Below, one piece after another: positions 1-6,501 of a DNA stretch of 64,000 bases (positions are counted from its first letter, which is position 1; each line of letters opens with the position of its first letter). The translations under genes and the position numbers were made by a program. Source of the stretch: a virus; UHGV virus genome UHGV-1364441, one strand, 5' to 3'. The notes beneath the pieces are model-generated. The model searched no databases. It was not told the DNA's origin and saw nothing but the letters and a program-made list of their open reading frames with translations.

Positions 1-185
1 GGTGAACCATGGAACGGTTTCAGCTACCAGTCGCGGCGGAAATCCTCCGTGACCGGAACAAAGTGTGTCGCTGGTGGCTATTGCGCTCATTCTTCATCTC
101 CTGGTTATTCGCCTATTGTCATCACTTTGTTATTTCGTCACTCAAAGAGAGAGTGAAATCACGGAACATTTACAATTCCCGTTTT

Positions 186-344
186 GTTCTCAAATTGTTC
201 TCAAATTGTTCTCACTTCTATCCAAGTGCCCAGCAGGCGATTAAAGATATTCTCAAAACAACCTCAATTATGACTCTTATTTATCTCTAATTATGTGGAT
301 TTTCGATGCCTTCTCTTTTAAAATCATGATTTGATTCTCAAATG
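186..344. repeat. parC-like centromere candidate: direct repeats GTTCTCAAATT x3 (186-215) plus related copies near 249-258 and 333-344, upstream of parM
   Basis: Tandem and dispersed TTCTCAAA repeats read directly; position upstream of the ParM/ParR operon is where type II parC sites lie. Confidence 0.45.
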
Positions 345-367
345 TGTCTCAGAAGTGGAGCAAGAAG

Positions 368-1324
368 ATGCGCATTTTTATCGACGATGGTTCAACAAAT
401 ATCAAAATGCTGTGGGAACACGACGGGGAAACTCGCACGCACATCAGCCCTAACAGCTTTAAGCGCGGATGGTCAGCAACATTTGGTGCTGGCAAGACAT
501 TTAACTATGTCATTGACGACGAAAAGTATTCGTATGATTTGATCTCGCCAGATGTTCTGCCGACGAATAACGTTGAATGGCAATACAGCCCGCTTAACGT
601 CCTGGCTGTTCACCACGCCCTGCTGACAAGTGGCATTGAGCCGCAGGAAGTAGAAATTGTGGTTACGCTGCCACTGGCGGAGTTTTACGACGACGACGCG
701 CAATACAATCTCGATAACATCGAGCGCAAGAAAGCCAGCCTTATGCGCCCCGTCACGCTGAATAAAGGCAATGTATTCACGATTAAGAAAGTCACGGTAC
801 GCCCGGAGTCTATTCCGGCAGGAATTGGCCTGTGCGACAATCTGACCCCTGCCCACTCTGTTCTTATCGTCGATTTGGGTGGAACTACCCTTGATGTTTC
901 AATGGTCGCCGGGCAAATGACGGCAGTTTCCCGTGTTTTTGGCGATTCGAATCTTGGCGTCTCTCTGGTTACCAGGGAAGTAAGGCAAGCACTTGCCAGA
1001 GCCAATACCGAAACGTCAAATTACAATGTCGATCAGCTCATTATTAACCGCCACGATGAAGATTATCTGAACGACAATATCAATGACCCATCAGCTATTG
1101 GTGATGTGAAAAAGGCCATTGCTGCAAGTATTGACCGTCTGCGTACCCGCGTTCTTGATGTGATTGGCGATTTTAAAGGATATACGCATGTCATGGTGAT
1201 CGGTGGCGGCGCACCGCTGGTGGCTGATGCAATTCGCGAGCAAGTTAATATTCGCGATGACCGTTTCTTCGTGGCGGATGACCCGCAACTTGCTCTTGTT
1301 CATGGCCTGAAAGCAATCGGTTAA
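368..1324 (+). CDS. parM: ParM/StbA-like actin-type plasmid segregation ATPase
   Basis: N-terminus MRIFIDDGSTNIK and overall similarity to R1 ParM/StbA; start moved from track 344 to ATG 368 (GGAG about 8 nt upstream). Confidence 0.8.
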   Translation: MRIFIDDGSTNIKMLWEHDGETRTHISPNSFKRGWSATFGAGKTFNYVIDDEKYSYDLISPDVLPTNNVEWQYSPLNVLAVHHALLTSGIEPQEVEIVVTLPLAEFYDDDAQYNLDNIERKKASLMRPVTLNKGNVFTIKKVTVRPESIPAGIGLCDNLTPAHSVLIVDLGGTTLDVSMVAGQMTAVSRVFGDSNLGVSLVTREVRQALARANTETSNYNVDQLIINRHDEDYLNDNINDPSAIGDVKKAIAASIDRLRTRVLDVIGDFKGYTHVMVIGGGAPLVADAIREQVNIRDDRFFVADDPQLALVHGLKAIG

Positions 1325-1336
1325 CGAGGTATGTCC

Positions 1337-1675
1337 ATGTCTCAGGAACGTAAGAAAGTGATGATTTATCTTCGCCCAGGGGCTTATGCCAATGAAAAGG
1401 CGGCGAGCGAGAAGATAAAAAAACATAGCGATATGGCAAGAACTGCATTGTTGGCAGGGCTTGCGCTGGGAGAAGTCGATAGCAGGCTTCCTGGATTACT
1501 GGCTTCCCTGCTGACCGAAGTCAATAACCCGGAGCAGATCCGAAAAATGCTGGCATCCTTCCTGGAATTACCTGCTGCTGTTGAGGAGCACCCTGCCGCC
1601 ATTGAGCCAGCGAAGGAGCAAGTTGTTGCCAAAAGCGCGTCGGCGCGTAATCTTGCTGATTCTCTACCTGATTGA
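1337..1675 (+). CDS. parR: ParR/StbB-like centromere-binding partner of ParM
   Basis: Small protein directly after parM with TALLAGLAL segment resembling ParR; ATG 1337 has better SD spacing than 1331. Confidence 0.55.
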   Translation: MSQERKKVMIYLRPGAYANEKAASEKIKKHSDMARTALLAGLALGEVDSRLPGLLASLLTEVNNPEQIRKMLASFLELPAAVEEHPAAIEPAKEQVVAKSASARNLADSLPD

Positions 1676-1695
1676 TGGTCAAAACTCTATTTTAA

Positions 1696-1718
1696 GGCTG
1701 CAAATTGCAGCCTTTTTT
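1696..1718 (+). terminator. Rho-independent terminator after parMR
   Basis: GGCTGCA-AATT-TGCAGCC hairpin followed by TTTTTT. Confidence 0.6.
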
Positions 1719-1734
1719 GTTCCTTTTTGGTGTT

Positions 1735-1935
1735 AAAATGGCATCAAAGCGACACCAAATGGGAGTCGTTAATGTACTGGTGCATACTTGGTGCTAATTT
1801 AGTGCTATTCAGGCGCAAAACGTGTACCAGTATCCATCGGATTTGATGTTATAGTTCCGGCATTAAGAATGGTGCTATTGCTGTACCGTTGATGTGTAAA
1901 TGTGGTGCCGTTTTAGTGTAAAAATAGAGCCAAAA
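1735..1935. repeat. Iteron-like short repeats (GGTGCTA / GTGTACC / AGTGCTAT / GTGTAAA family) upstream of parA; parC1-like centromere candidate
   Basis: Many closely spaced copies of related 6-8 bp words in both orientations, seen directly. Confidence 0.45.
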
Positions 1936-1953
1936 TAAAGCCGAGGTATGGAC

Positions 1954-2595
1954 ATGATTATCCTGGTAGCAAGTCAAAAGGGAGGCTGTGGCAAGTCAAC
2001 CACCAGCGTCAATATTTGTGCCGAGCTGGCCCGAAAAAACAAAGATGTCGTCTTGATTGATGCTGATAAGCAGGGAACGGCAGCTCGATGGGCGTCAGAC
2101 CGTAATTCGTCCGAAGTGACACCAGTTATTCATTGCGTCCAGAAGTTTGGAAATATTCGAGAAACTCTGCTCGATCTTAACAATCGATATGAATACGTGG
2201 TTGTTGATACCGCAGGTCGTGATAGTAAAGAGATGCGCACAGGTATAACGGCGGCGGATATTCTATTGGTTCCATTCAGGCCGTCTCAGCCAGATTTGGA
2301 CACGCTGGCACACTTTGTTGAGGTGTTTGAAGAGGCTTTGGATCTGATGCCTAATCCCAATATTAAGGCGTGCGCAGTCTTAACGATGGCCCCGTCAAAT
2401 CCGGTTGTGAATGAAGCAAATGAGGCCAAAGAGTATCTGGCAGAATATCCGCAACTGAAATTGCTGAAAACCATTATTCGCGATCGCAAGGTTTACCGCG
2501 ACTGCATGGCTGAAGGAAAGGGTGTTGTTGAGATGGATAACGGTAAGGCGAAAGGTGAAATTCAGATGTTAGTTAAGGAGTTGCTAAGTGATTAA
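1954..2595 (+). CDS. parA: ParA-family partition ATPase (small, type Ib)
   Basis: Deviant Walker A KGGCGKST near N-terminus, ~213 aa; ATG 1954 has 7-nt SD spacing. Confidence 0.85.
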   Translation: MIILVASQKGGCGKSTTSVNICAELARKNKDVVLIDADKQGTAARWASDRNSSEVTPVIHCVQKFGNIRETLLDLNNRYEYVVVDTAGRDSKEMRTGITAADILLVPFRPSQPDLDTLAHFVEVFEEALDLMPNPNIKACAVLTMAPSNPVVNEANEAKEYLAEYPQLKLLKTIIRDRKVYRDCMAEGKGVVEMDNGKAKGEIQMLVKELLSD

Positions 2596-2872
2596 ACGTC
2601 GAGAACCAGCTAAAGCGCCTAAGGCTACTGATCCGGAACTTGAGCGAAGAATTGAAGAGTTCGCCAGCAAAGCGGATTTAATCCCGGATGAAATTACAAC
2701 GGGGAAGGTGCTTGATAAAGATGCGCCGCGCGACTTTAAATCCATACGCGTGAGCTTTAATGAATATGAGTACGGCGTACTCGATGATTTAAGCAAAAAA
2801 CTGAACCGCAGCAAATTGAACTTGATTCGGCATGCAATCCTCATGTTAGCGGAGTCTGAGGAAGCAAAATAA
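2588..2872 (+). CDS. Ribbon-helix-helix centromere-binding protein (ParG/ParB-like partner of ParA)
   Basis: Overlaps parA 3' end (GTG start); C-terminal RHH-like segment IRVSFNEYEYGVLDDLSKKLNRSKLNLIRHAILML after a basic disordered N-terminus. Confidence 0.5.
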   Translation: MIKRREPAKAPKATDPELERRIEEFASKADLIPDEITTGKVLDKDAPRDFKSIRVSFNEYEYGVLDDLSKKLNRSKLNLIRHAILMLAESEEAK

Positions 2873-2894
2873 TGTCTTTCAGGTTGGTTTTAGA

Positions 2895-3000
2895 ACTTAA
2901 AAATTCTTGAATCAAAGGTGTACCAATGTAGCACCGATTTGGTGCACCTTTACATCCTTTTTGGTGCCAATTGTGTACCATATAGCACTGGTTTACTTAT
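2895..3000. repeat. Second iteron-like array downstream of the ParA/RHH operon (parC2-like)
   Basis: GGTGTACC, TGTAGCACC, TGGTGCACC, TGGTGCCA, TGTGTACCA, AGTGCTATA words of the same family as 1735-1935. Confidence 0.4.
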
Positions 3001-3140
3001 GAGCAGAAGTGGGCTTGATGAAAAAGCTCATTATTGAAATAACGATAGAAAGCAATTTCTAATCAACTAGTGGTTGTCAGCCTATTCGGCTTATAAGATC
3101 ATACGCTGTTATACGTTTTTTACGCTTTGAGGAATCCACA

Positions 3141-4802
3141 ATGAGTGAGGCAGAAGCCCGCCCGACTAACTTTATTCGTCAGATCATCGATGAAGATCTG
3201 GCAAGTGGTAAGCACACCACAGTACATACCCGTTTCCCGCCGGAACCGAATGGCTATCTGCATATTGGTCATGCGAAATCTATCTGCCTGAACTTCGGGA
3301 TCGCCCAGGACTATAAAGGCCAGTGCAACCTGCGTTTCGACGACACTAACCCGGTAAAAGAAGATATCGAGTACGTCGAGTCGATTAAAAACGACGTTGA
3401 ATGGTTAGGTTTTCACTGGTCTGGTAACGTCCGTTACTCCTCCGATTATTTTGATCAGCTCCACGCCTATGCTGTTGAACTGATCAACAAAGGCCTGGCG
3501 TATGTTGACGAACTGACGCCGGAACAGATCCGCGAATACCGCGGCACCCTGACGCAGCCGGGTAAAAACAGCCCGTACCGCGATCGCAGCGTTGAAGAGA
3601 ACCTGGCGCTGTTCGAAAAAATGCGTGCCGGTGGTTTTGAAGAAGGTAAAGCCTGCCTGCGTGCGAAAATCGACATGGCGTCGCCGTTTATCGTGATGCG
3701 CGATCCGGTGCTGTACCGCATTAAGTTTGCTGAACACCACCAGACTGGCAACAAGTGGTGCATCTACCCGATGTACGACTTCACCCACTGCATCAGCGAT
3801 GCGCTGGAAGGTATTACGCACTCTCTGTGTACGCTTGAGTTCCAGGACAACCGTCGCCTGTACGACTGGGTGCTGGACAACATCACCATTCCTGTTCACC
3901 CGCGCCAGTACGAATTCTCGCGCCTGAATCTGGAATACACTGTGATGTCCAAGCGTAAGCTGAACCTGCTGGTGACCGACAAGCACGTTGAAGGCTGGGA
4001 TGACCCGCGTATGCCGACCATTTCCGGTCTGCGTCGTCGTGGTTACACTGCGGCTTCTATTCGTGAGTTCTGCAAACGCATCGGCGTGACCAAGCAGGAC
4101 AACACCATTGAGATGGCGTCGCTGGAATCCTGCATCCGTGAAGATCTCAACGAAAATGCGCCGCGCGCAATGGCGGTTATCGATCCGGTGAAACTGGTCA
4201 TCGAAAACTATCAGGGAGAAGGCGAAATGGTCACCATGCCGAACCATCCAAACAAACCGGAAATGGGTAGCCGTCAGGTGCCGTTTAGCGGTGAGATTTG
4301 GATCGACCGCGCCGATTTCCGAGAAGAAGCTAACAAGCAGTACAAACGTCTGGTGCTGGGTAAAGAAGTGCGTCTGCGTAATGCTTACGTCATTAAGGCT
4401 GAACGCGTGGAGAAAGATGCCGAAGGCAATATCACCACCATCTTCTGTACTTATGACGCCGACACCTTAAGCAAAGATCCGGCAGATGGTCGTAAAGTGA
4501 AAGGCGTTATTCACTGGGTGAGCGCGGCACATGCGCTGCCGGTTGAAATCCGCCTGTACGATCGTCTGTTCAGCGTGCCGAACCCAGGTGCTGCTGATGA
4601 TTTCCTGTCGGTGATTAACCCGGAATCGCTGGTGATCAAACAGGGTTTTGCTGAACCGTCGCTGAAAGAAGCGGTAGCGGGTAAAGCATTCCAGTTTGAG
4701 CGTGAAGGTTATTTCTGCCTCGACAGCCGCCATTCTACGGCGGAAAAACCGGTATTTAACCGCACCGTTGGGCTGCGTGATACCTGGGCGAAGTTAGGTT
4801 AA
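3141..4802 (+). CDS. glnS: Glutaminyl-tRNA synthetase (class I aaRS), full length 553 aa
   Basis: HIGH motif (HIGHAKS), KMSKS-type motif (VMSKR), and end-to-end resemblance to enterobacterial GlnRS as I recall it. Confidence 0.95.
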
Positions 4803-4819: not shown

Positions 4820-4853
4820 AAAAAAGTAAACGCCGCTACTGCGGCGTTTTTTA
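4820..4853. terminator. Bidirectional rho-independent terminator between glnS and the convergent Dam-like gene
   Basis: CGCCGC-TACT-GCGGCG hairpin flanked by an A-run upstream and T-run downstream. Confidence 0.7.
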
Positions 4854-5756
4854 CTTCATTATTGCAATTATATCGTTAGCAACTACACGTGTTGACGCCT
4901 TGCAGGACACCGACCGTCTGGCTGCCATATGATGTACTTTAAACCCGTTTCCTTCATATAGTTCACGGATGTTTGGCGCACCACTATTTGTTATCACTAC
5001 CTTAGCGCCGCGCTGGTGGGCTTCCACCAATAGAGATACCAGCCGTTTCTGTTCGTCGAAACGGAAGCTATTTCCTGAATAACTGGTAAACCCTTCTGTA
5101 TCCGGCAGCGGTTCATACGGCGGATCGCAAAAAATCACATCGCCTTCACCAGCCGCCTCGATGACGCCAGCAAAGTCACCTGATACAAAGGACGTGTTTT
5201 TGAGTACGTCATCAGCCAAAAATGCCTCCATCTCTGCATGTGGGAAGTAGGGCGCTTTGTATTTGCCATACCCCACGTTGAACTCGCCATTTTGGTTGTA
5301 CCGCGTTACGCCATTAAAACAGTGCCGATTAAGGTACAAAAAGGCGGCAGCATGATGTAGCTGGTCATACTTTCCTCTGTTAAATGCCTCACGCACTTCG
5401 AGGTAAGCGTCAGCGTTGTTGTAATTTTTGAAAAAACTATATGACAGCGTGACGAGCGAATGTCCTTCTCGCTGCAATGTCTGATAGAAGTTAATCAGGT
5501 CACCGTTAATATCATTAAGCAGGTTGTGGCGAAATCCTGCATTCGTAAATACGGAACCGCCACCAACGAATGGTTCTATTAACCGCTTACCGTGTGGTAG
5601 ATGCTCAAGCACTGTAGGCAATTCTGAGAATTTACCACCTACCCATTTGAATATCGGACGCTCATATTCATCCGGAGTCCGAATGGTGCGCATATAGCTA
5701 ATTTCAGCCATCGTATCCTGTTTTTCTATGGCTATGCGTGCTATAGATTTACTCAT
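4851..5756 (-). CDS. DNA N6-adenine methyltransferase (Dam/T4 Dam-like)
   Basis: FKWVGGK, EPFVGGGSV and DPPY motifs; ATG 5756 preceded by AAGGGGG RBS; overlaps the upstream gene stop by 8 nt. Confidence 0.8.
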   Translation of the reverse strand: MSKSIARIAIEKQDTMAEISYMRTIRTPDEYERPIFKWVGGKFSELPTVLEHLPHGKRLIEPFVGGGSVFTNAGFRHNLLNDINGDLINFYQTLQREGHSLVTLSYSFFKNYNNADAYLEVREAFNRGKYDQLHHAAAFLYLNRHCFNGVTRYNQNGEFNVGYGKYKAPYFPHAEMEAFLADDVLKNTSFVSGDFAGVIEAAGEGDVIFCDPPYEPLPDTEGFTSYSGNSFRFDEQKRLVSLLVEAHQRGAKVVITNSGAPNIRELYEGNGFKVHHMAARRSVSCKASTRVVANDIIAIMK

Positions 5757-6501
5757 AGAGCACCCCCTTATTCGCTTCGAAAACTGCCTTTGCGAATCCA
5801 TGTGGAGTAGCACTTCGAAAATTAGCCCTGTCAGGCCCTGGTGGCGCGGCATGGATTCTGTTATCTGGCTTGCCTAATGATTCGTCCATTAGGGCATCAG
5901 GCATGACAAAGCCCTGGCCGCTCCAGAGGCATGTTTTTTTGGTGTAGTTATCTTCCTGACAATATGCAGTGAAGAAGTAAGGGTGAAAGATGTGATCTGG
6001 CTTACGCCAGAATGTCGATATTTTGCTGACCGGATTTTCAATCATGTACGGACAACCGATCATCTTTGCAATGTCATAACACTGCCAGACAACCTGCATT
6101 GCTTTGAACTGGAAAACCGGATCTTTATTAGCCTTGTCCGAAAACCAGCGCGCGCCGGAAACAGCCAGGTCAGTACACGGTGGGAACCCGGCCAGAAACA
6201 CGATGCGCTGCAAATTCTTACGGAGAAAAGCGTATACTTCATCGCTATCGATGATCGCACTAATACGCGTCAGAACGGCACCTGATTGCATCCGCTCGTC
6301 ACTGGTCGATAAGTGCTGTGGATCGACGATAGCGGCATCGACACCGTATTCCAGCCAGGGGGCAACCATTGCCCCCGTAAAATCACAAAGACTCACAACA
6401 AGCGGTCGGTTATTATCGTTCTGCTTCACCGCCAATGGCCTCCACCAGCGCGTTAAACAGTGCAGATAATTCGCCCGTAAAGAGCACGAAATCAGCATCA
6501 A
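5749..6501 (-). CDS. DNA cytosine-C5 methyltransferase-like protein (compact, ~250 aa)
   Basis: AGFPPC (PCQ-like catalytic Cys motif) and ENP (ENV-like) motifs; much shorter than canonical Dcm, so function uncertain; 5' end overlaps the rdgC 3' end. Confidence 0.5.

What the first reader, a model, noticed from the sequence alone, without database searches (positions are those of the whole stretch)
186..3000. Double partition locus with three repeat arrays
A type II system (ParM, ParR) and a type Ib system (small ParA plus RHH protein) are co-directional and adjacent. TTCTCAAA direct repeats lie upstream of parM, and two arrays of a different short-repeat family flank the ParA/RHH operon upstream and downstream. 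Dual centromere sites flanking a small ParA operon, next to a ParMR locus, recall the double par locus of plasmid pB171.
Basis: partly seen in the sequence, partly recalled or inferred. Interest (0 to 1): 0.5.

Follow-up and report, generated by a model that had tools for sequence, protein, structure and literature searches.

The report
Tandem double partition locus, D6-like phage-plasmid
This stretch of a D6-like plasmid prophage of E. coli carries two different plasmid-segregation machines side by side, each with its own arrays of 11-bp-spaced protein-binding repeats. The layout is a known kind, but the small DNA-binding protein of the second machine belongs to a family that nobody has named.

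Summary
The window is a D6-like (P1-related) phage-plasmid, 100% identical over bases 1-3140 to an E. coli plasmid and 88% to phage D6.

It holds two co-directional operons separated by a strong terminator:
- parM-parR (type II). ParM is 54% identical to R1 ParM.
- A 213-aa ParA plus a 94-aa ribbon-helix-helix (RHH) protein (type Ib).

There are three repeat arrays, all with an 11-bp register:
- TTCTCA iterons around the parM promoter.
- GGTRC-type units on both sides of the parA promoter.
- About 7 more GGTRC-type units just after the RHH gene.

All four genes are under purifying selection.

The RHH protein has no Pfam or NCBIfam match and is called 'hypothetical' in every source. Its distant relatives in many proteobacteria always follow a small ParA. 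Unbiased k-mer counts show the same GGTAC/GCACC motif enriched 5-7-fold just upstream and just downstream of those operons.

The likeness to pB171 is one of composition only. pB171 has divergent operons sharing one centromere region; here the operons are in tandem, no sites are shared, and the centromere-binding proteins are not detectably related.

Verdict: an ordinary, gene-level-annotated double par locus and a new member of a known kind. The modest added value is a predicted centromere motif for an unnamed protein family. No DNA binding or plasmid stabilisation was tested.

The parts
184..353 (+). parC-like iteron array for ParR. The 11-bp units are at 184, 195 and 206 (TTGTTCTCAAA twice, then TTGTTCTCACT), 247 and 258, degenerate units at 280 and 307, and 332 and 343 (TGATTCTCAAA, TGTGTCTCAGA).
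   Evidence: lag 11, z 6.2. TCTCA cores are 96% conserved against 70% for spacers across D6-like relatives.
295..324 (+). Inferred parM promoter: a weak -35 (GTGGAT/TGGATT) and a -10 TAAAAT at 319-324, lying between upstream and downstream iterons.
   Evidence: Read from the sequence. The blocks TGTGGAT and CTTCTCTTTTAAAAT are conserved in the alignment. The consensus scan did not call it, so it is an inference.
368..1324 (+). parM, actin-like segregation ATPase (318 aa).
   Evidence: Pfam StbA_N 4e-69 and ParM C-terminal domain 5.5e-55. R1 ParM in the PDB at E 1e-111, 54% identity. dN/dS 0.02-0.05.
1337..1675 (+). parR, the adaptor that binds parC (112 aa).
   Evidence: Pfam Plasmid_stab_B, 42.7 bits against a cutoff of 25. 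pB171 ParR/StbB 2JD3 at E 6e-6 over residues 3-75. dN/dS 0.10-0.27.
1694..1720 (+). Intrinsic terminator that ends the parMR operon.
   Evidence: 9-pair stem with 5 GC pairs, followed by TTTTTT. Invariant in all five aligned relatives.
1727..1831 (+). Upstream centromere/operator block A for the type Ib system: about 10 units of 11 bp with one 6-bp phase slip, cores (T/A)(G/T)GT(G/A)(C/T), for example TTGGTGCTAAT and TTAGTGCTATT.
   Evidence: Lags 11, 22 and 33 give z 4.3, 2.4 and 2.2. Cores TGGTGT and TGGT.C are invariant in relatives.
1847..1855 (+). Inferred parA promoter: extended -10 element TGtTATAGT.
   Evidence: TTGATGTTATA(C/G)T is nearly invariant across five relatives whose flanks diverge. 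Similar GTATAAA elements sit inside the arrays of distant relatives. It is an inference; the consensus scan did not call it.
1869..1923 (+). Upstream block B: 5 in-phase 11-bp units (ATGGTGCTATT, GCTGTACCGTT, GATGTGTAAAT, GTGGTGCCGTT, TTAGTGTAAAA) between the promoter and the ribosome-binding site.
   Evidence: Lags 22 and 11 give z 4.0 and 2.6.
1954..2595 (+). parA, small Walker-type partition ATPase (213 aa, deviant Walker A KGGCGKS, no N-terminal DNA-binding domain).
   Evidence: NF041546 ParA_partition 1.3e-47. Pfam AAA_31, MipZ, CbiA and VirC1. ParF 4DZZ at E 1e-17. dN/dS 0.00-0.05.
2588..2872 (+). Gene for the 94-aa centromere-binding protein. GTG start overlaps the end of parA by 8 nt. 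Basic N-terminus (MIKRR), helix 16-30, flexible linker, RHH domain about 50-93.
   Evidence: No Pfam, NCBIfam or PDB sequence hit. AF2 pLDDT 82.5. RHH folds top the Foldseek list. Family members hit RHH Pfam models. Always follows a small ParA in distant relatives.
2915..2993 (+). Downstream centromere-like array: about 7 units of 11 bp (AAGGTGTACCA, ATGTAGCACCGAT, TTGGTGCACCT, TTACATCCTTT, TTGGTGCCAAT, TGTGTACCATA, TAGCACTGGTT). It includes the palindrome GGTGCACC and an inverted repeat, 2914-2926 with 2939-2951.
   Evidence: GGTRC cluster above all shuffles. Lags 11 and 22 give z 4.0 and 3.6. Relatives with an unrelated downstream sequence carry a similar array. Family-wide enrichment just after the stop codon.

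Best explanation
Two independent, intact partition cassettes keep the low-copy plasmid prophage in both daughter cells.

Cassette 1 is an R1-type ParMRC system. ParR dimers coat the 11-bp TTCTCA iterons that surround the parM promoter. This complex both represses the operon and captures the ends of growing ParM filaments, which push sister plasmids apart.

Cassette 2 is a type Ib ParA system. Dimers of the 94-aa RHH protein bind GGTRC-type cores spaced 11 bp apart, so on one face of the helix. The sites lie in two blocks that bracket the parA promoter and in a third block just after the operon. The upstream blocks give autorepression. All blocks together load a partition complex whose basic N-terminal tail stimulates nucleoid-bound ParA-ATP, so that plasmids are spaced along the nucleoid.

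What is shown here: gene identities, operon structure, existence and periodicity of the arrays, their conservation, and the family-wide link between motif and operon. What is inferred from R1, pB171, TP228 and pESBL: protein-DNA binding, both promoters, ATPase stimulation, and the centromere activity of each array.
For: - Gene assignments.
- A terminator between the operons and a translationally coupled parA/RHH pair.
- Clustering and 11-bp periodicity of all three arrays.
- TCTCA cores are 96% conserved against 70% for spacers; GGTRY cores 82% against 73% in IG2.
- dN/dS is 0.02-0.27 for all four genes.
- The locus is present in 102 of 5426 complete E. coli genomes, always on plasmids.
- In 23 of 27 loci of distant RHH relatives, a 209-213-aa ParA with KGGxGK[ST] overlaps the start of the RHH gene. 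In ordinary plasmids the pair sits next to rep genes with no parMR beside it.
- Unbiased k-mer enrichment over 21 such loci: GGTAC 57 observed against 6.3 expected upstream (19 loci); GTACCA 39 against 1.7 upstream and 15 against 1.0 downstream.
- GGTRC density is 4.5 per 100 bp in the last 50 bp before parA and 2.8 in the first 50 bp after the stop, against a background of 0.4.
- W444-type plasmids replace the DNA after the RHH stop codon with an unrelated sequence, yet that sequence again carries an 11-bp-spaced TGGTGT/GTGTACC/TGACAC array ahead of a terminator.
- Dual flanking arrays bound by a small ParB are documented experimentally for pESBL and cited for pB171 and pSM19035: PMC7602700.
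Against: - No binding, stabilisation or incompatibility data exist for this element or for any member of the RHH family.
- The core motif is short and degenerate. For the loose pattern GGTRY the downstream cluster only equals the best shuffle.
- Core-versus-spacer conservation is uninformative for the downstream array (83% against 84%).
- Only 10 of 21 distant loci have 2 or more strict sites downstream.
- The downstream array overlaps a hairpin, so part of its sequence could serve transcription termination.
- RHH fold hits are individually non-significant.
- Neither promoter was called by the consensus scan.
Confidence: 0.8

Rival explanations
1. Only one cassette segregates the plasmid. The other is redundant cargo retained by linkage, or is used only in particular hosts or conditions.
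For: Hierarchy between co-resident partition systems is reported for other replicons: SCP1, R27 and pINV, as summarised in PMC13245405. The type Ib module is mosaic: dS is 1.2-1.5 between the window and D6 against 0.1-0.2 for parM. It therefore moves independently of parMR.
Against: All four genes show dN/dS of 0.27 or less. Both cassettes are present together in at least 112 plasmid records covering 80% or more of the region. The repeat cores of both are conserved.
Confidence: 0.25
2. The downstream array (2915-2993) is not a centromere. It is a terminator hairpin plus a few chance or vestigial sites, and only the promoter-proximal blocks are functional, acting as operators and centromere.
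For: An inverted repeat, 2914-2926 with 2939-2951, forms a 13-bp stem. No extra conservation of cores in IG3. Only about half of the distant loci have 2 or more strict sites downstream. In several relatives a GGTAC site lies in the loop of, or directly beside, a terminator-like hairpin.
Against: The array extends 40 bp beyond the hairpin with the same 11-bp register. The stem is not followed directly by a T-run. A sequence-unrelated replacement in W444-type plasmids still carries an array and has its own separate terminator. The motif is enriched about 7-fold in the first 50 bp after the stop codon across the family.
Confidence: 0.2
3. The ParA/RHH pair is not a partition system. It would be a ParA-like ATPase with a repressor serving another phage or plasmid function, and the repeats would be plain operators.
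For: The small protein is 'hypothetical' in every source and has no family assignment. ParA scores below the NCBIfam equivalog cutoff, 162 against 180 bits.
Against: The best ParA matches are partition ATPases: ParF, the NF041546 model over its full length, and 42% identity to the ParA of the pB171-type locus. The module sits beside rep genes as the only par candidate nearby in pAsa5 and in the Kacie_13 plasmid. The architecture matches experimentally proven type Ib loci.
Confidence: 0.05

Closest known systems
Double par locus of pB171 (par1 parMR + par2 parAB with parC1 and parC2). Compared here through the pB171-type locus of pEC404/03-2, whose ParR is near-identical to PDB 2JD3.
   Same: A type II cassette directly beside a type Ib cassette. 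Small ParA (214 against 213 aa) and small centromere-binding protein (91 against 94 aa). [quoted passage not shown]
   Different: pB171-type operons are divergent and share the intervening repeat region; here they are in tandem with a terminator between them. No GGTRY core occurs in the parM leader, and the k-mers enriched in the parM leader are not among those enriched in the parA arrays. Identities are ParM 43%, ParR 32% (N-terminal 75 aa) and ParA 42%; the centromere-binding proteins are not detectably related (BLASTP E 0.13; hhalign probability 0.8%). The repeats there are TCATA/ATCACA-like hexamers, not GGTRC on an 11-bp register.
R1/NR1 ParMRC (parC made of 11-bp iterons flanking the promoter).
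   Same: ParM is 54% identical over its full length. ParR belongs to the StbB Pfam family. The iterons are 11 bp long and lie on both sides of the inferred promoter.
   Different: The iteron sequence (TTCTCAAA core) and layout (3+2+1+1+2 rather than the 5+5 I recall for R1, from my own knowledge) differ. The host replicon is a phage-plasmid.
pESBL (IncI) type Ib ParAB with GATAACAA octamer arrays (PMC7602700).
   Same: A small ParA plus a roughly 100-aa 'hypothetical' ParB with no family assignment. [quoted passage not shown] The ParA of an IncK relative is 44% identical to the window ParA.
   Different: The centromere-binding proteins are unrelated (no BLASTP alignment). The motif is different. 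pESBL has experimental proof; this locus has none.
TP228 ParF-ParG-parH.
   Same: ParF is the closest solved ParA (E 1e-17). ParG, an RHH protein with a flexible N-terminal tail, appears among the fold matches (rank 5).
   Different: There is no sequence similarity between the 94-aa protein and ParG. From my own knowledge, the TP228 sites are upstream only.
P1 parABS (type Ia), the partition system of the reference relative of D6.
   Same: It plays the same role in the same kind of element, a plasmid prophage.
   Different: P1 has a large ParA with a DNA-binding N-terminus and a helix-turn-helix ParB next to repA. In D6 repA lies 11 kb away from this locus, with no par genes beside it. The D6 annotators note similarity only to the C-terminal third of P1 ParA.

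Membership tests
Type II (ParMRC) partition system | Actin-like ParM ATPase | tested here: met
   Pfam StbA_N 232 bits and ParM C-terminal domain 186 bits, both far above cutoff. 54% identity to R1 ParM.
Type II (ParMRC) partition system | ParR adaptor gene directly downstream of parM | tested here: met
   PF10784, 42.7 bits against a cutoff of 25. Homology to pB171 ParR 2JD3 at E 6e-6. The gene starts 12 nt after the parM stop.
Type II (ParMRC) partition system | Upstream parC made of tandem iterons overlapping the promoter | tested here: met
   Nine 11-bp-phased TCTCA-core units at 184-353 with conserved cores. The promoter position is inferred.
Type II (ParMRC) partition system | ParR binds parC, and ParM filaments segregate plasmids | not testable with these tools
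   Needs EMSA, stability assays and imaging.
Type Ib (small ParA + small RHH centromere-binding protein) | ParA of about 200-220 aa with a deviant Walker A and no N-terminal DNA-binding domain | tested here: met
   213 aa with KGGCGKS at residues 9-15. Matches the 203-position NF041546 model end to end.
Type Ib (small ParA + small RHH centromere-binding protein) | Small centromere-binding protein with a ribbon-helix-helix fold, encoded downstream of parA | tested here: inconclusive
   Position and size fit. AF2 gives a strand-helix-helix C-terminal domain at pLDDT 89-95. RHH proteins fill the top of the Foldseek list but with E 0.5-5. CopG alignment at E 0.2. 13-17 of 61 relatives hit RHH Pfam models weakly. 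Concordant, but no single significant hit. The dimer was not modelled.
Type Ib (small ParA + small RHH centromere-binding protein) | Arrays of short repeats near the operon that serve as centromere and operator | tested here: met
   Met at the sequence level only: arrays at 1727-1923 and 2915-2993 with an 11-bp period. The same motif is enriched on both sides of the operon in 21 distant loci. Binding was not tested.
pB171-type double par locus | Type II and type Ib cassettes adjacent | tested here: met
pB171-type double par locus | Divergent operons with a shared intervening centromere/operator region that allows cross-regulation | tested here: not met
   Both operons are on the + strand, separated by a terminator. 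No GGTRY core occurs in the parM leader, and all nearby exact TTCTCAAA copies lie in it. The pB171-type layout is shown.
pB171-type double par locus | Centromere-binding protein homologous to pB171 ParB | tested here: not met
   BLASTP E 0.13. hhalign probability 0.8%.

The most novel reading that the evidence does not exclude
The 94-aa protein is the founding described member of an unnamed family of type Ib centromere-binding proteins. The family has 124 clusters at 50% identity and no Pfam model, and every member is called 'hypothetical'. Its cognate site, (T/A)GGT(A/G)C(C/T)AA on an 11-bp register, is conserved from E. coli phage-plasmids to plasmids of Aeromonas, Marinobacter, Methylococcales and Nitrotoga. 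It is typically placed on both sides of the operon, sometimes in the loop of, or directly beside, the operon's terminator hairpin. In D6-like phage-plasmids this module, rather than the P1-type parABS, works in tandem with ParMRC, and it is exchanged as an allelic unit that could set partition incompatibility between co-infecting phage-plasmids.
Probability: 0.55. Interest if true: 0.45.

Novelty: new member of a known kind. Interest (0 to 1): 0.3.

Why it matters
D6-like phage-plasmids occur in about 2% of complete E. coli genomes and in Salmonella and Shigella. How they are kept in the cell determines their persistence and their compatibility with other plasmids and with each other.

This analysis assigns a role to a gene that is 'hypothetical' in every record. 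It also delimits three candidate centromere/operator arrays to the base and gives a testable binding motif that appears to hold across a whole unnamed protein family.

It does not change the picture of how partition works. Type II plus RHH-type-I combinations are already counted in 971 PLSDB plasmids (PMC13245405).

Tried and rejected
Sources that could not be obtained:
- The D6 genome paper and the pB171 paper are not held. What they say about these loci could not be checked, so I relied on the GenBank annotation of D6.
- pB171 itself is not in the collections. A pB171-type locus, pEC404/03-2, was used instead.

Searches that gave nothing:
- Single-sequence searches for the 94-aa protein against Pfam, NCBIfam and the PDB.
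- The first AF2 run on a shallow alignment gave pLDDT 60.7. It was superseded by the run on the deeper alignment.
It worked with 12 sequences.
- The consensus promoter scan found neither operon promoter.
- Two literature searches found no experimental work on D6 partition.

Ideas considered and rejected:
- Shared centromere or cross-talk as in pB171: the two repeat families do not mix.
- The arrays as replication iterons: no rep gene is nearby, and D6 repA is 11 kb away.
- A vestigial cassette: purifying selection acts on all four genes.
Full report
**What the window is.** Bases 1-3140 are 100% identical to plasmid NZ_AP035758.1 of E. coli SOI121. They match 102 of 5426 complete E. coli genomes, always on plasmids and never on a chromosome. 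They are 99% identical to other roughly 90-kb non-mobilizable plasmids and 88% identical to phage D6, the P1-related plasmid prophage.

In the D6 record the four genes are orf58-61. They are annotated 'partition protein (similar to StbA)', 'partition protein', 'ParA-like partition protein' and 'hypothetical protein'. A study of the D6-like pYU39_89 likewise lists parA, stbB and parM as its partition genes (PMC6799933). So the presence of two kinds of par genes was already noted at the gene level. I could not read the D6 genome paper.

**The genes.**
- parM (368-1324) matches both Pfam ParM domains far above threshold and is 54% identical to R1 ParM over its full length.
- parR (1337-1675) is a member of Pfam Plasmid_stab_B. 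Its N-terminal 75 residues align with the solved ParR of pB171, 2JD3.
- A 9-pair GC-rich hairpin with a T-run at 1694-1720 ends this operon and is invariant in relatives.
- parA (1954-2595) encodes 213 residues with the deviant Walker A motif KGGCGKS. It matches the NCBIfam ParA_partition model end to end (162 bits, just under the equivalog cutoff of 180). Its closest solved relative is ParF of TP228.
- The last gene (2588-2872) starts at a GTG that overlaps the parA stop by 8 nt, 6 nt after an AAGGAG. It encodes 94 residues with no hit in Pfam, NCBIfam or PDB sequences.

**Is the small protein a ribbon-helix-helix (RHH) protein?** A word-based search found only 14 close homologues, all from D6-like elements. 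A full HMMER scan of 1.84 billion cluster representatives found 124 clusters.

With a 61-sequence alignment, AlphaFold gave pLDDT 82.5, and 89-95 for residues 41-90. The model has an N-terminal helix (16-30), a low-confidence linker, short strand elements at 51-57 and two helices at 59-72 and 76-93. Foldseek against the PDB returned mostly RHH proteins: CopA antitoxin, PutA, ParG, TacA, ParD, CopG, Arc and NikA. TM-scores were 0.65-0.82 relative to the small targets, but E-values were only 0.5-5.

The family profile aligns the whole RHH domain with CopG at E 0.2. Of the 61 members, 17, 13 and 11 weakly match Pfam NikA-like, RHH_1 and DUF6290. No single result is significant, but they agree. 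I treat the RHH assignment as likely, not proven.

The near-invariant residues across the family are R5, F25, K51, N58, E61, L65, R74 and R81. By analogy with ParG (my own knowledge), the basic N-terminus is the candidate ParA-activating tail. From the CopG alignment, S52, R54 and S56 are the candidate base-contacting strand residues. Both points are inference.

**The repeat arrays.**

*Upstream of parM.* Four of the window's six exact TTCTCAAA copies lie within 156 bp. The TTCTCA cluster exceeds every one of 100 dinucleotide shuffles. Read in 11-bp steps, the units are at 184, 195, 206, 247, 258, 280, 307, 332 and 343, and lag 11 stands out at z = 6.2. Across five relatives whose spacers have diverged, the TCTCA cores are 96% conserved against 70% for the rest. 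The conserved blocks TGTGGAT and CTTCTCTTTTAAAAT between the unit groups fit a promoter with -10 TAAAAT at 319-324. That would leave two iterons just downstream of the start site, as in R1 parC. The consensus scan did not call this promoter, so it is inferred.

*Around the ParA operon.* A second repeat family has cores summarised as GGTRC/GYACC, with fuller units such as TTGGTGCTAAT. It forms the two densest clusters of the whole 64-kb window, at 1727-1923 and 2915-2993. For GGTRC the downstream cluster exceeds all shuffles. For the looser GGTRY it only equals the best shuffle, so the raw count alone is modest evidence.

Periodicity is clearer. Lags 11, 22 and 33 are the top three in the upstream array, and lags 11 and 22 are the top two in the downstream array. 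Neither the rest of that intergenic region nor the parA coding sequence shows this.

The upstream array is really two blocks. About ten units lie at 1727-1831 and five units at 1869-1923. They bracket TTGATGTTATAGT, which is nearly invariant in relatives and reads as an extended -10 element. That is the layout expected for autorepression.

Core-versus-spacer conservation is modest upstream (82% against 73%) and uninformative downstream (83% against 84%), because most sampled relatives are nearly identical there.

**Independent support for the downstream array.** There are two lines.

First, a group of plasmids (W444 and others) is 98-99% identical up to the stop codon of the small gene and then switches to unrelated DNA that lacks glnS. 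That DNA begins with about eleven 11-bp-spaced units (GATGCC, TGGCGTC, GTGTACC, TGGTGTC, TGGTGTT, TGACAC and so on), followed by a separate terminator.

Second, I collected distant relatives of the small protein (43-56% identity) from Sodalis, Serratia, Rahnella, Chimaeribacter, Aeromonas, Hahella, Kangiella, Marinobacter, Methylococcales, Nitrotoga and others. In 23 of 27 loci a 209-213-aa ParA with KGGxGK[ST] ends at or overlaps the start of the small gene. In pAsa5 and in the Kacie_13 plasmid the pair sits next to the replication gene, with no parMR nearby.

An unbiased k-mer comparison over 21 non-redundant loci gave these results:

| Region | k-mer | Observed | Expected | Loci |
|---|---|---|---|---|
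| 200 bp before parA | GGTAC | 57 | 6.3 | 19 |
| 200 bp before parA | GTACCA | 39 | 1.7 | 18 |
| 120 bp after the stop | GTACCA | 15 | 1.0 | 12 |
| 120 bp after the stop | ACTAAA | 22 | 0.8 | 13 |
| 120 bp after the stop | GGTAC | 22 | 3.7 | 14 |

GGTRC density is 0.36-0.41 per 100 bp in coding and distal DNA. It is 4.5 in the last 50 bp before parA and 2.8 in the first 50 bp after the stop. So the motif family goes with the protein family, and placement on both sides is common: 14 of 21 loci have 3 or more sites upstream and 10 of 21 have 2 or more downstream. It is not universal.

**Are both cassettes alive?** Pairwise dN/dS against four relatives is 0.02-0.05 for parM, 0.10-0.27 for parR, 0.00-0.05 for parA and 0.06-0.21 for the small gene. 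The region is kept whole in at least 112 plasmid records. This argues against a decayed cassette, but it is not a functional test.

The same comparison shows mosaicism. Between the window and D6, dS is 0.2 for parM but 1.2 for parA and saturated for the small gene. The type Ib module with its arrays therefore exists as divergent alleles within the D6-like population.

**Comparison with pB171 and others.** pB171 is not in the collections. Plasmid pEC404/03-2 carries a ParR that matches the PDB pB171 ParR almost residue for residue, and it has the divergent parR-parM / parA-parB layout. Against it, the window proteins are 43% (ParM), 32% (ParR N-terminus) and 42% (ParA) identical. The small proteins show no significant similarity. 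Its repeats are different hexamers.

The defining peculiarity of pB171 is a shared region between divergent operons. That is absent here. The operons are in tandem, a terminator separates them, and the two repeat families do not intermix.

Dual arrays flanking a type Ib operon are documented for pESBL, with EMSA, and cited for pB171 and pSM19035 (PMC7602700). The combination of an RHH-type type I system with a type II system was counted in 971 PLSDB plasmids (PMC13245405). Unlike P1, D6 has no par genes next to repA, which lies 11 kb away.

**Verdict.** The feature is real, correctly read, and of a known kind. What is new is limited. The arrays are delimited to the base and share an 11-bp register. 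The 'hypothetical' fourth gene is assigned as the centromere-binding protein. A binding motif is predicted that appears to hold for a whole unnamed protein family. All mechanistic steps beyond sequence anatomy rest on analogy with R1, pB171, TP228 and pESBL.

Noticed in passing
window 3141-4802: A full-length glutaminyl-tRNA synthetase gene (glnS) lies directly after the partition locus on this phage-plasmid. It is also annotated in D6 (orf62). In W444-type relatives it is absent: homology stops at the stop codon of the 94-aa gene, and other DNA with an IS91 transposase follows.
   Followed up: partly
window 1954-2872 compared with L001 5952-6873 (phage D6): The parA/RHH module is far more diverged from D6 (dS 1.2 to saturated; proteins 93% and 77% identical) than the adjacent parM (dS 0.2; 99%). 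The type Ib cassette therefore looks like an exchangeable allele, possibly tied to partition incompatibility.
   Followed up: partly
L010 2795-2850; L007 3270-3310; L009 4390-4450; L008 1745-1780: In distant relatives of the operon, a GGTAC(C/T) site sits in the loop of, or directly beside, a GC-rich terminator-like hairpin. Examples are GGAGCC-TTTTTGGTACTAAAAA-GGCTCC after the small gene and GGAACC-TTTTTGGTACCAAAAA-GGTTCC before parA in pAsa5. Whether protein binding and termination interact is unknown.
   Followed up: no
window 2914-2951: An inverted repeat (AAAGGTGTACCAA / TTGGTGCACCTTT, 12-nt loop) lies inside the downstream array. It includes the perfect palindrome GGTGCACC. The RNA fold of 2873-3000 has a z-score of -2.4 against shuffles.
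   Followed up: partly
window 4851-6501, minus strand: Two adjacent DNA methyltransferase-like ORFs (333 and 250 aa) correspond to D6 orf63 and orf64 (dmt-like). They were not examined.
   Followed up: no
window 93-150: The left part of the parM upstream region (TCTTCATCTCC...TCACTTTGTTATTTCGTCA) is almost invariant across relatives. It probably belongs to the leader or promoter of the divergent PAAR/upfC-like gene on the minus strand. The TTCTCA iterons begin only about 90 bp from that gene.
   Followed up: no
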